Source of the DNA: Promethearchaeota archaeon
GTDB lineage: Archaea; Asgardarchaeota; Lokiarchaeia; Sigyniarchaeales; SOKP01
Reading direction: 5' to 3'
Assembly: GCA_016839705.1 (NCBI GenBank)
Contig: JAEOTR010000079.1
Coordinates: 32,224-96,223, forward strand
DNA length: 64,000 bases
Each line of letters opens with the position of its first letter. Position 1 is the stretch's first letter. The position numbers were made by a program, and so were the translations under genes. A model generated the notes under the pieces. It was given only the letters and a program-made list of their open reading frames with translations, was not told the origin of the DNA and ran no database searches. Below are positions 50,632 through 53,937 of the stretch, piece after piece.

Positions 50632-51630
50632 CTAGAACTCATCATCATTAACGTAGGGTGCGTAGAAGCTAATATATTTAACTGCATCGTCTGGGGCAAT
50701 TATCACGGCTAATCCATCATGCTTTTTAGCGAATTTTAAGGCAACAGCTAAAATTGCACCTGTAGATGGACCAACTAATATTCCGTTTTTCCTCGCCAAT
50801 TCAATTCCAGTTCGATATGCATCATCATCGCTCACTTCGAAAATCTTATCAATAACCGTTTCATCTAAGATTTTTGGAATTAAATCTTCATCTAAGTCTG
50901 AAATTTTTTTTAGACCTGGTATATTATGTATTGAGTCTAAAGGTTCAATTCCTAGAATTTTAACCGATGGTTTCTTTTCTTTTAAATATTTTCCAACTCC
51001 TGTAATAGTACCACAGGTACCTGTTGCTGCAAAGAAATAATCAATTTCTCCATTTGTTTGCTCCCAAATTTCTGGACCAGTAGACATATAATGAGCTTGA
51101 ACATTCAAATAATTCTCATATTGATTTGGATTAAAATAGCGTTCTCCACCCTTACCACTTAAGATACCATTAACAACACCTCTGGCACCTTCATTTGGGA
51201 ATTGAGGACATAAATTATCATCGGCTTCCCATAAAGCCTCCACACCAAGCAACTTTAAAAGTATCTTTTTTTCTTCTGGAATTCTTGAAGGTACAGCAAT
51301 TTCAATTGGAATACCTCGCGCATTAGCTAAAGATGCTAAAGCAATTCCAGTGTTTCCGGAAGACGGTTCTAAAATAATTTTCCCATCCTTAAAATTATAA
51401 TTCTTCAGCATCGAATAGGCTATCCTATCCTTTATTGATCCAAAAGGATTATAACGCTCAAGCTTCATATAAATTGGGAAGTCCTTATTTGGATTAATTC
51501 TCTCATTTAATTTGACTAAGGGAGTAGGATTTTCCCTATTTGAAATTAGATCCTCAATACTTTCATAAACCCTTAATCTAGTATTTATCCCAATTTTCCC
51601 GGTTCTCTTACCATACGATTGAACTTTCAT
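50632..51630 (-). CDS. Cysteine synthase family PLP enzyme (CysK/CysM-like)
   Basis: TPLVKL, KLERYNPFGSIKDR, PSSGNTG, TGPEIWEQ, GTCGT, GPSTGA. Confidence 0.9.
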   Translation of the reverse strand: MKVQSYGKRTGKIGINTRLRVYESIEDLISNRENPTPLVKLNERINPNKDFPIYMKLERYNPFGSIKDRIAYSMLKNYNFKDGKIILEPSSGNTGIALASLANARGIPIEIAVPSRIPEEKKILLKLLGVEALWEADDNLCPQFPNEGARGVVNGILSGKGGERYFNPNQYENYLNVQAHYMSTGPEIWEQTNGEIDYFFAATGTCGTITGVGKYLKEKKPSVKILGIEPLDSIHNIPGLKKISDLDEDLIPKILDETVIDKIFEVSDDDAYRTGIELARKNGILVGPSTGAILAVALKFAKKHDGLAVIIAPDDAVKYISFYAPYVNDDEF

Positions 51631-51743
51631 GATTTCATCCTTTATTTTTAGTATTCAGCATAAAAATTCTGTAACTTAACCAAACAAGTGTTTAATAAAG
51701 GTAAAAAATTAGTTGGTTAGTTGAGAATTAATGAAACTGTCGT

Positions 51744-51794
51744 TTAACAACAACAACAAAAACTACAGCAACAAGAGGTAAGAACACTTACCAT
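51744..51794 (-). CDS. Putative Cys-rich leader peptide MVSVLTSCCCSFCCCC
   Basis: ATG at 51794, TAA at 51744-51746; 7 Cys codons among the last 9; 113 nt upstream of the cysteine synthase start, same strand. Confidence 0.72.
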   Translation of the reverse strand: MVSVLTSCCCSFCCCC

Positions 51795-51963
51795 GTTCTG
51801 ATTATTAATTCTCATTAGATTTTGTAATGTTCGTACATTTAAAATATTCATGGTGATATTTAATAAAAATTGACACTAGGTCAAATGCTGATTTAATTTT
51901 TATGAATAATATTAAAAATGATAAAAAAGGAAAGAATTTTTCTCTCTCTGCGAAAGATCGGGT

Positions 51964-52221
51964 TTACTTCGCTTCCCAAGGCATGCAAAAGTAGCCTTTC
52001 TCTAATTCATATGAAGAGTACAATCCGCAACCAAAGCAACTGCAACCTTTATTCTCTATCTGATCTCGGGGTTTTTGTGATTGTCCTCTTGAACAGAATA
52101 GAGCGTGTGGCTCAAATTCATTGATTTTATTTGGTTTAAATGAAGGGCATGGTCCACAGAATTGCCCGCATATTTTCATATTTTCCGGTGTATCCGGAAC
52201 TGGTTTTGCCATAATTTTCAC
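51964..52221 (-). CDS. Small Cys-rich protein (DUF2769-like)
   Basis: CGPCPSF...LFCSRG...GCSCFGC...YFC. Confidence 0.75.
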   Translation of the reverse strand: MKIMAKPVPDTPENMKICGQFCGPCPSFKPNKINEFEPHALFCSRGQSQKPRDQIENKGCSCFGCGLYSSYELEKGYFCMPWEAK

Positions 52222-52366
52222 TTTATTTAGTTCTAATTTAATTTTCTAATTTTAGAAAAGTTTACTGTCAAGTAAATCTAAATTTTAGATTACGATCAAA
52301 ATAAGCAATTTAGCTTTTAAAGTTAATAATTATAAACTATTAATTTTGAACGAAAGAAATTCTTTT

Positions 52367-52762
52367 TTAAACTATTTTTTGAATTACTAAATCTAAATAG
52401 GATTGAATCTGTTTTTCAACAATATCATAGTGTGTAAATTTTCCTTTTTTCCAACCTTTAATTAATCCTGCTTTTTCAAGGATTTTAAGATGATGAGATA
52501 TTGATGGTTGTGACTCATTCAATAATGCTTCTAATTCACAAACACATCGATCTTTTTCTTTTAAGACGTTCATTATTATTAAGCGCTTTTTGTTTCCTAA
52601 GGCACTTAGAAATTTGGTTAAATCACTAAAATTTGAACTTTCAATCAAATGATCTCCTAATTCACGCAATTGTTTGAAATGTACAGTTGGGTTATCAATA
52701 TCCTCACATTTAATCAATTTTTCTAGAATTTCTTTTTTATGATCGGGATCCATTAGTAACAC
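52367..52762 (-). CDS. arsR: ArsR-family repressor (CVC arsenite motif)
   Basis: ALGNKKRL, RCVCEL, SQPSISHHLKIL; divergent from acr3. Confidence 0.88.
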   Translation of the reverse strand: MLLMDPDHKKEILEKLIKCEDIDNPTVHFKQLRELGDHLIESSNFSDLTKFLSALGNKKRLIIMNVLKEKDRCVCELEALLNESQPSISHHLKILEKAGLIKGWKKGKFTHYDIVEKQIQSYLDLVIQKIV

Positions 52763-52831
52763 TATTTTATATTTTCAAATATCCAATAATATAGAAGATG
52801 GATAAATTTATAACATTTTATTCAAATCAAT

Positions 52832-52855
52832 AAATTTTTATTTGGATAAAAATTT
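52832..52855. promoter_or_regulatory. Candidate ArsR operator
   Basis: Perfect 10-bp inverted repeat AAATTTTTAT-TTGG-ATAAAAATTT in the arsR/acr3 intergenic region; low complexity limits confidence. Confidence 0.35.
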
Positions 52856-52911
52856 TATTATTTAAGATCAAAATAGAATTCTTTAAATCGTAAAAAAGAA
52901 ATTGAATTATC

Positions 52912-53937
52912 ATGACAGAAGAAGATGGCCGGGGAATTAGTTTTTTTGAACGTTACCTTACAATTTGGGTGGCAGCTTGTATTGGAATAGGAATTCTCCT
53001 TTCTCAAATTATCCCGAGTATTAGTGTAGCGATTAACACCTTACAGATTGGGGGAATTTCTTTACCTATTGGGATTTGTCTATTCCTAATGATGTATCCT
53101 GCAATGCTGAATCTTCAACTTGCTGAACTTAAAAAGTTAGGAAAAAACCCAAAACCCATAATTTTAACTATTATGTCTAATTGGCTTATTGCTCCTTTTG
53201 TTGGATTACTAGTGGCACGGATATTTTTACAAGGGTATGAACAGTTAATTGTAGCAGTCATCCTTCTCTCGAGTTCACCATGTACTGCTATGGTTTTGGT
53301 GTGGGGTTGGATGGCTAAAGGCAATCAAGAACAGAATGTTATGAATACAAGCCTAAACACAATAACAATTATATTCGGTTATGCTCCTCTTGTTACACTC
53401 TTAACTGGTATTCAAAACATTCCAATTGACTGGGTTCTTTTATTAATCTCGACATTCGTATTCATAGGACTTCCGCTATTAGGAGGAATTATCAGTAAAA
53501 GATTGTTAATTCGATCAAGAGGAGAAGAGTGGTTCAACGATACCTATCGTCCAATCATAGGAAAGATATCAATTATTGCCTTGTTAACAACGTTGATTAT
53601 ACTTTTTTCAATGAATGGTAATGTTTTGATACAAAATCCAGATTTATTATTAATAATTACAATTCCACTCTTACTCGGTTTTGTGATTGTAGTTGGATAT
53701 AATATACTGATTACAAAACTCACTAAATTGAAATACCGAGAAGCTATTATTACAGTAATTATTGGATCATCAAGCCATTTTGAAATTGCGATTGCTACTG
53801 CTATTGCTATGTATGGAATTGGTTCAGTAGCAGCTCTAGGGACTACCATGGGCCTTTTTTGGGAAGTTCCAATTATGCTATCCATAGTATATCTTGGTCG
53901 GTTCCTTAAAAAACGAAGTTTCTGGAAAACAGAATAA
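52912..53937 (+). CDS. acr3: ACR3-family arsenite efflux transporter
   Basis: FFERYLTIWV, MMYP, NWLIAPF, PCTAMVLVW, FEIAIA, EVPIM. Confidence 0.93.
   Translation: MTEEDGRGISFFERYLTIWVAACIGIGILLSQIIPSISVAINTLQIGGISLPIGICLFLMMYPAMLNLQLAELKKLGKNPKPIILTIMSNWLIAPFVGLLVARIFLQGYEQLIVAVILLSSSPCTAMVLVWGWMAKGNQEQNVMNTSLNTITIIFGYAPLVTLLTGIQNIPIDWVLLLISTFVFIGLPLLGGIISKRLLIRSRGEEWFNDTYRPIIGKISIIALLTTLIILFSMNGNVLIQNPDLLLIITIPLLLGFVIVVGYNILITKLTKLKYREAIITVIIGSSSHFEIAIATAIAMYGIGSVAALGTTMGLFWEVPIMLSIVYLGRFLKKRSFWKTE

What the first reader, a model, noticed from the sequence alone, without database searches (positions are those of the whole stretch)
51631..51850. Cys-rich leader peptide upstream of cysteine synthase: possible ribosome-mediated attenuation in an archaeon
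Seen: minus-strand mini-ORF 51794-51744 encodes MVSVLTSCCCSFCCCC*, with 7 Cys in the last 9 codons (both TGT and TGC). It ends 113 nt before the cysteine synthase ATG. A TATA-like TTTTAAAT lies about 45 nt upstream. The spacer has a U6 tract and alternative pairings: AACTAACCAAC can pair with the downstream GTTTGGTTAAGTT or partly with the GU-rich Cys codons, and TGTTGT can pair with ACGACA. Established: runs of cognate codons in leader peptides define bacterial amino-acid attenuators, and archaea couple transcription with translation and terminate at oligo-U. Inference: ribosome stalling on Cys codons controls read-through into the synthase gene. Such control is barely documented in archaea.
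Basis: partly seen in the sequence, partly recalled or inferred. Interest (0 to 1): 0.85.

Follow-up and report, generated by a model that had tools for sequence, protein, structure and literature searches.

The report
Cysteine-sensing leader mini-gene, Asgard archaeon
A 23-codon mini-gene ending in seven cysteine codons sits in a conserved, switchable RNA leader in front of a cysteine-synthase-like gene of this Asgard archaeon and its relatives, and most likely lets the ribosome sense cysteine supply, a kind of gene control I found published only for bacteria.

Summary
The mini-ORF is real and conserved, but starts at 51815 (23 codons, Met-Arg-Ile-Asn), not 51794; its TATA box lies 21 nt upstream, so the transcript is probably leaderless. 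23 distinct leaders precede orthologues (70-93% identical): 21-26 codons, 4-8 Cys, frame always kept, key segments 95-97% identical versus 46% at synonymous sites. The same genome has conserved Trp, Ile and Leu leaders before trpB2, ileS and leuS, so ribosome-based amino-acid sensing is likely (~0.85). Folding predicts a switch: a helix closing over the leader's start codon versus a long downstream hairpin that forms when ribosomes occupy the start (20/22 leaders), e.g. queued behind one stalled at Cys codons. No bacterial-type terminator and no co-evolved anti-Shine-Dalgarno were found, so the output step (premature U-tract/FttA termination, favoured, or translation) is unproven; covariation is not significant and no RNA data were available. 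Closest known: mycobacterial polycysteine leaderless sORF attenuators. I found no published archaeal case. This scan has already reported the same Cys leader, and Trp/Ile/Leu/His leaders, on other Asgard genomes.

The parts
51837..51844 (-). TATA box (TTTTAAAT), 21 nt before the leader ATG; implies transcription start at or next to the ATG (leaderless)
   Evidence: TTTTAA core at a 21-nt gap in 15 of 16 leaders, 22 nt in one; genome-wide TATA-to-ATG gaps show a local peak at 21-24 nt. Start site itself not mapped.
51744..51815 (-). Leader ORF, 23 codons, starts MRIN, ends CCCSFCCCC
   Evidence: ATG invariant, frame kept, 21-26 codons, 4-8 Cys in 23 distinct leaders; no stop in this frame in 16/16, a stop in each other frame in 16/16
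51792..51794 (-).
   Evidence: AAG/TTG/CTG/CAG at this codon in relatives
51765..51773 (-). First Cys cluster (codons 15-17), probable first stall site
   Evidence: first Cys of the cluster at codon 14-17 in 23/23, no indel between start and this cluster; TGT/TGC variation concentrated here
51747..51758 (-). Second Cys cluster (codons 20-23); its last two codons are the 5' arm of stop-codon hairpin P3
51804..51814 (-). P1 5' strand (start codon region), pairs with 51732-51722
   Evidence: 95% of cells paired in 23 leaders; formed in 20/22 unconstrained folds
51777..51792 (-). P2 hairpin inside the ORF (GGTAAG / CTTACC)
   Evidence: 91% of cells paired; absent from the diverged leader L161
51738..51752 (-). 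P3 hairpin, last Cys codons paired with ACGACA, stop codon in the loop
   Evidence: 93% paired; one U-A to U.G to C-G series (L173)
51722..51732 (-). Switch strand: pairs either with the start region (P1) or with AGAATT downstream (P5)
   Evidence: TTCTC core invariant; P1 in free folds, P5 when the start is blocked, 20/22 each
51712..51721 (-). P4 5' strand
   Evidence: kept with different flanking pairs in L161
51694..51708 (-). U/pyrimidine-rich tract (U6 in this genome), loop of P4; candidate FttA/aCPSF1 or intrinsic termination signal
   Evidence: pyrimidine-rich but variable in sequence; role inferred; no co-evolution with the SD
51673..51685 (-). P4 3' strand
   Evidence: TGG(T/C)T invariant
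51665..51670 (-). P5 3' strand (AGAATT), competitor for the switch strand
   Evidence: 98% of cells paired with AATTCT
51635..51642 (-). Shine-Dalgarno-like site of the enzyme gene
   Evidence: GGATG/GGGTG/GGAGG/GAGGTG variants in relatives; genome SD gaps peak at 7-11 nt
50632..51630 (-). Divergent CysK/CysM-family PLP enzyme (332 aa), the regulated gene
   Evidence: PF00291; TIGR01136 2.7e-78 but below cut-off; best solved relatives are cysteine synthases; 70%-identical homologues lie beside cysE, Rrf2/CymR-like, cysK, sulfite-reductase-like and PAPS-reductase-like genes

Best explanation
It is a cis-acting, ribosome-read cysteine gauge on a leaderless transcript. Shown by sequence comparison: transcript geometry, a selected 21-26-codon ORF with terminal Cys clusters, and conserved, mutually exclusive pairings. 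Inferred: (1) ribosomes initiate at the 5' AUG. (2) With ample Cys-tRNA they run off; P2, P3 and then P1 close over the start codon, shutting re-initiation and leaving the downstream U-rich spacer ribosome-free and weakly folded. (3) With scarce Cys-tRNA a ribosome stalls at codons 15-23; a second one fits exactly behind it and covers nt 1-27, so P1 cannot form and the switch strand instead joins the long P4+P5 hairpin. (4) The P1 state is OFF and the P4+P5 state ON; I favour premature termination/cleavage in the exposed U-rich spacer by aCPSF1/FttA (about 0.45 given sensing), helped by a modest gain in SD access (about 0.3 as the main route). Probability that the element is a Cys-tRNA-sensing regulator of the enzyme gene: about 0.85.
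For: Unique in the genome. Present in every orthologue locus with >=74% identity and enough upstream DNA, and in a diverged form at 70%; never found away from this gene in 161 genomes. Start region, last codons and post-stop segment 95-97% identical against 46% at fourfold-degenerate sites of the gene and 45% upstream of the promoter. ORF indels only in whole codons, spacer indels of single bases; 121 TGT and 20 TGC. Leader fold z = -2.0 to -5.1. P1-to-P5 switch on blocking the start: 16/16, 20/22. Independent cognate pairs in the same genome: Trp leader before trpB2 in about 21 of 30 loci, Ile leader before ileS in 8/8, Leu leader before leuS in 4/4. CysRS present, SepCysS not found. Haloferax ribosomes protect 15-16 nt at leaderless starts and 27 nt in elongation and pause at A-site Met and Cys codons under aminoacylation stress (PMC7261190). 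Full-length aCPSF1 in 5/5 congeners tested; FttA reads U-rich RNA within 36 nt of the 3' end (PMC11616081) and Loki aCPSF1 works in Methanococcus (PMC8716108).
Against: No expression, start-site or ribosome data. Covariation does not exceed shuffles: the helices rest on conserved complementarity, a folding z-score and a weak G.U-over-A.C excess (26 vs 10 cells; 14 vs 7 types, p 0.19). Masking only the Cys codons mostly leaves P1 in place, so the model needs queuing or kinetics that equilibrium folding cannot show. The U-tract is not base-paired in either state and is not conserved as a U run. In the diverged leader L161 and in L168/L171 the predicted alternative state differs. The enzyme's reaction is not established and no cysE was found in this 93% complete assembly. 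Kin are not independent: 23 leaders are one lineage.
Confidence: 0.82

Rival explanations
1. Same Cys sensing, but the output is translational as in mycobacteria: in the Cys-replete fold the pyrimidine tract (or, in L161, ACCUCA just after the stop hairpin) masks the enzyme's SD, and stalling frees it; any mRNA loss is secondary polarity.
For: Energy to open the SD/AUG window falls from 5.2 to 4.1 kcal/mol on average and in 18/22 leaders when the start is blocked; the window's own tract forms a 13-pair duplex with its SD; L161 has a 6-pair anti-SD.
Against: Cognate tract-SD duplexes are no better than swapped ones (permutation p 0.71) or shuffled tracts (mean z +0.33); the last conserved element ends about 25 nt before the SD; the Cys tract itself does not pair with the SD.
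Confidence: 0.27
2. The peptide is the product: a free metallothionein-like or As(III)-binding mini-protein co-expressed with the enzyme.
For: 4-8 Cys; an ArsR / DUF2769 / Acr3 arsenic-resistance cassette lies directly upstream in this window and in about 13 of 20 loci.
Against: Codons 5-8 vary freely (59% nucleotide identity) while non-coding partners after the stop are 95% identical; terminal Cys is traded for Arg, Tyr or Ser while pairing is kept; the leader stays with the enzyme gene when the ars cassette is absent and never occurs alone; Trp, Ile and Leu leaders show the same design without metal ligands.
Confidence: 0.05
3. The conserved blocks are DNA operator half-sites (inverted repeats at +2..+12 and +84..+94) for a repressor, or a structured RNA (riboswitch-like) whose UGU repeats are kept for pairing; the ORF is incidental.
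For: No significant covariation; TGT share 86% vs 75% genome-wide; archaeal repressors often bind across the start site (own knowledge).
Against: Frame, ATG and stop kept through 42 alternative codons and only whole-codon indels; the first Cys cluster is outside any conserved helix and shows synonymous change; substitutions in P1, P4, P5 give G.U (8 cells) and never A.C; no Rfam family match; cognate match in four separate leaders.
Confidence: 0.07
4. A chance TGT microsatellite in an AT-rich spacer.
For: Six of seven Cys codons in this copy are TGT.
Against: Conserved far above neutral sites across several genera; unique in the genome.
Confidence: 0.01

Closest known systems
Mycobacterial polycysteine leaderless sORF attenuators, 'Cys ribulon' (Ms5788A; Canestrari et al., bioRxiv 10.1101/834739; predicted earlier by Seliverstov et al., PMC1262725)
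   Same: Leaderless short ORF with a C-terminal Cys run, about 100 nt before a cysteine/sulfur gene, no intrinsic terminator.
   Different: Archaeal TATA promoter and host; no sequence relationship tested or seen; the Cys tract pairs with a local partner, not with the downstream SD; the switch strand toggles between the start codon and a downstream hairpin; only one Cys-leader locus per genome found.
Enterobacterial leader-peptide transcription attenuators (trpL, hisL, leuL, pheM-pheST; Rfam Trp_leader, His_leader etc.)
   Same: Cognate-codon run in a short uORF before biosynthetic or aminoacyl-tRNA synthetase genes; hairpin pairing the sensing codons with the post-stop segment; a helix that re-closes the leader's own start.
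   Different: No GC-rich terminator hairpin with U-tail, no Rfam match; leaderless; archaeal RNA polymerase and FttA instead of intrinsic termination.
Rho-dependent leader control (E. coli tnaC, Salmonella corA/mgtA-type leaders)
   Same: Factor-dependent termination on exposed, ribosome-free RNA is the closest analogue of the favoured FttA step.
   Different: Archaea have no Rho; no nascent-peptide arrest motif is evident; signal is a hungry codon.

Membership tests
Ribosome-mediated leader-peptide attenuators (general class) | [quoted passage not shown] | tested here: met
   (enzyme function itself inferred from family and neighbours)
Ribosome-mediated leader-peptide attenuators (general class) | uORF under selection (start, stop, frame, synonymous variation) | tested here: met
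Ribosome-mediated leader-peptide attenuators (general class) | Mutually exclusive RNA structures whose balance depends on ribosome position | tested here: inconclusive
   predicted in 20/22 leaders, conserved complementarity, but covariation not significant
Ribosome-mediated leader-peptide attenuators (general class) | Downstream expression responds to the amino acid through the uORF codons | not testable with these tools
   needs reporter or RNA data; no RNA run was listed
Classical trpL/hisL transcription attenuators | Intrinsic terminator (stable hairpin plus U-tail) competing with an antiterminator | tested here: not met
   no such terminator between leader stop and gene; U-tail after P5 not conserved; no Rfam leader match
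Mycobacterial polycysteine LL-sORF attenuators | Leaderless sORF with consecutive Cys codons ahead of a cysteine-related gene | tested here: met
   TATA 21 nt before invariant ATG; start site inferred, not mapped
Mycobacterial polycysteine LL-sORF attenuators | Cys tract base-pairs with the downstream SD region (shown for Ms5788A) | tested here: not met
   Cys tract pairs with the post-stop segment; no co-evolved anti-SD
Cysteine synthase CysK/CysM (NCBIfam TIGR01136/01138/01139) | Score above the curated cut-off | tested here: not met
   263 vs 344, 241 vs 351, 239 vs 394 bits; a divergent subfamily
Metallothioneins | Stable Cys-rich peptide with conserved Cys spacing that binds metal | tested here: inconclusive
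   Cys number 4-8 and spacing vary, terminal Cys replaceable; metal binding not testable

The most novel reading that the evidence does not exclude
Lokiarchaeia run a set of ribosome-read amino-acid gauges (Cys, Trp, Ile, Leu here) of their own design, in which a ribosome queued behind a stalled one blocks a helix over the leader's start codon, and the resulting fold decides whether the CPSF73-like factor aCPSF1/FttA terminates the transcript early: uORF control coupled to a eukaryote-like termination machinery.
Probability: 0.35. Interest if true: 0.9.

Novelty: new variant of a known kind. Interest (0 to 1): 0.78.

Why it matters
Leader-peptide attenuation is textbook in bacteria; in ten full-text searches I found no paper showing it in archaea (the library misses most subscription papers). 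A conserved case in Asgard archaea, the closest relatives of eukaryotes, gives a short, portable test substrate for two open questions: whether archaea use transcription-translation coupling and FttA for regulation, and whether uORF-based amino-acid sensing predates eukaryotes or arose independently. The leader also marks this divergent CysK/M subfamily as a cysteine-supplying enzyme, useful for an uncultured lineage. It sits on a patchy gene (9 of 135 family genomes), so such sensors appear to evolve readily on accessory genes.

Tried and rejected
Rfam scan: only chance-level hits. Bacterial-type terminator scan: nothing between leader stop and gene. RNA runs: none was listed, which says nothing about expression. 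Pairing of the post-stop segment with the P4 3' arm (classical 2:3 antiterminator): probability 0 in all masks. Co-evolved anti-SD: rejected. Covariation of P1-P5: not above shuffles. Other poly-Cys leaders in the family: pattern searches returned only this locus type and chance antisense hits. Transfer of the leader from bacteria: bacterial homologues at 67-73% identity lack it in the DNA held; the tree does not fix a root or one versus two origins, so no donor is claimed. Cognate leaders before MetRS, ValRS, GluRS, TyrRS, GlyRS, the second LeuRS, aroA/aroC, glnA and the canonical cysKM copy: none seen (part of that output was cut). aCPSF1 in the window's own assembly: no full-length copy, most likely unassembled since 5/5 congeners have it. 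One script failed on a pattern and one paper look-up on syntax; both were redone or dropped.

Full report
Observation. The stated mini-ORF, its seven Cys codons, the 113-nt gap and the TATA-like box are all in the sequence. It is not chance: of 50,363 short ATG ORFs in the genome it is the only intergenic one with five or more Cys in nine codons directly before a gene, and it ranks first among 537 TATA-preceded candidates. The downstream protein belongs to the CysK/CysM PLP family but scores below all curated cut-offs. Close relatives are labelled Promethearchaeota, so the host is a Lokiarchaeia-type Asgard archaeon.

Correcting the anatomy. The ORF therefore has 23 codons, and the TATA box lies 21 nt before it in 15 of 16 leaders, at the local peak of TATA-to-ATG distances in this genome. 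A leaderless transcript is the natural reading; the start site was not mapped.

Selection. Twenty-three distinct full leaders were aligned: 21-26 codons, 4-8 Cys, first Cys cluster at codon 14-17, 121 TGT and 20 TGC. The reading frame has no stop in any leader, whereas both other frames have one in all 16 tested; indels in the ORF are whole codons and those in the spacer single bases. The first 12 nt, the last codons and the 22 nt after the stop are 95-97% identical, against 46% at fourfold-degenerate sites of the enzyme gene and 45% upstream of the promoter. The gene is patchy (9 of 135 family genomes). The leader is present whenever the gene heads its own unit, including a diverged version in another genus at 70% protein identity, is absent from operon-internal archaeal copies and from bacterial homologues, and was not found at any other gene in 161 genomes. 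These sequences form one lineage, so counts are not independent; the tree leaves root and number of origins open.

Independent support from other amino acids. Before consulting earlier notes, the same genome scan turned up a Trp-rich uORF before trpB2, an Ile-rich one before ileS and a Leu-rich one before leuS. They are conserved in about 21 of 30, 8 of 8 and 4 of 4 loci. Four cognate matches are hard to explain by metal binding, operators or microsatellites.

RNA structure. The leader folds far better than shuffles (z -2.0 to -5.1). Unoccupied, it forms P1 (start region with a strand 12-22 nt after the stop), P2 inside the ORF and P3 over the stop codon; P4 follows. The P1 3' strand has a second conserved partner, AGAATT (P5), which extends P4 into a long hairpin. 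Blocking the first 15 nt flips P1 to P4+P5 in 16/16 and 20/22 leaders, whereas masking only the Cys codons mostly does not. Pairs are kept in 93-95% of cells against 27-53% for slid controls, but covariation does not exceed shuffles; G.U outnumbers A.C weakly. The structure is thus plausible, not proven.

Mechanism. Haloferax ribosomes cover 15-16 nt at a leaderless start and 27 nt in elongation, and pause at hungry A-site codons (PMC7261190). A ribosome stalled at codon 15 would leave nt 1-27 free, room for exactly one more ribosome, which would cover the P1 5' strand; the invariant distance from start to first Cys cluster fits this. I infer: Cys plentiful, ribosomes clear, P1 closes, gene OFF; Cys scarce, ribosomes pile up, P4+P5 forms, gene ON. 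How OFF is executed is open. There is no bacterial-type terminator. A co-evolved anti-SD was not detected, although SD opening energy drops by about 1 kcal/mol in 18/22 leaders. Premature termination by aCPSF1/FttA, which acts on U-rich nascent RNA (PMC11616081, PMC8716108) and is present in congeners, is my preferred route. The ON-in-starvation logic rests on the enzyme being biosynthetic: its homologues lie among cysE, cysK, Rrf2, sulfite-reductase-like and PAPS-reductase-like genes, but no cysE was found in this assembly, so its substrate is unknown. CysRS is present and SepCysS not found.

Comparison with the known. It works like the mycobacterial polycysteine leaderless sORF attenuators (bioRxiv 10.1101/834739; PMC1262725) but fails their demonstrated feature, pairing of the Cys tract with the SD; it also fails the terminator test of trpL-type attenuators. 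Ten literature searches gave no archaeal example; a 2026 review of termination does not mention attenuation in archaea (PMC13675443). The library is incomplete, so novelty is 'not found', not proven.

Earlier scan notes. The same Cys leader was reported on other Asgard genomes, as were Trp, Ile, Leu and His leaders. These are unchecked AI notes and add no evidence; where I tested them they agree.

Verdict. A real, selected, probably leaderless Cys-codon leader in an Asgard archaeon; ribosome-based cysteine sensing about 0.82-0.85, output mechanism unresolved. New variant of a known kind; interest 0.78.

Noticed in passing
L073:4377-4445 (G000:C49:40376-40444, +): 22-codon uORF with four Trp codons before trpB2; conserved in about 21 of 30 best loci across several genera.
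   Followed up: yes
L077 (G000:C97:77787-77713, -): Ile-rich uORF before a patchy, MupB-like ileS that is followed directly by cysS; conserved in 8/8 loci; its 5' SD-like segment has a conserved complement after the stop, echoing P1.
   Followed up: partly
L076:2752-2835 (G000:C30:5751-5834, +): Leu-rich uORF before a patchy archaeal-type leuS (4 of 54 genus genomes); conserved in 4/4; the genome's other leuS has none.
   Followed up: partly
window 51964-53937: DUF2769, ArsR-family regulator and Acr3 arsenite exporter lie directly upstream; this ars cassette accompanies the Cys-leader gene in about 13 of 20 loci, hinting at a link between arsenic stress and thiol supply.
   Followed up: partly
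L161:1321-1494: Diverged leader (another genus) with a 6-nt anti-SD right after the stop hairpin; may use translational control, unlike the main clade.
   Followed up: partly
L047:2822-2890 and L069:2861-2905: Unrelated short Cys-rich ORFs just before the homologous gene in a bacterial-looking contig and in a Nanoarchaeota-labelled genome; possible independent Cys leaders.
   Followed up: no
L075 (G000:C85:85538-86533, +): A second, canonical cysKM gene (above cut-off) without a Cys leader; preceded by small Cys-containing zinc-finger-like ORFs in relatives.
   Followed up: partly
L120 (G000:C88:85620-86948, -): Only a KH-less aCPSF homologue found in this assembly; full-length aCPSF1 is probably unassembled.
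   Followed up: partly
L074 (G000:C17:56828-56727, -): 33-codon intergenic ORF with five Cys in nine codons and no gene called within 300 nt downstream.
   Followed up: no
L063, L163/L164: Contigs with this leader are labelled Hodarchaeota or Thorarchaeota by their sources although gene and synteny match the Lokiarchaeia genus; labels may be wrong.
   Followed up: no
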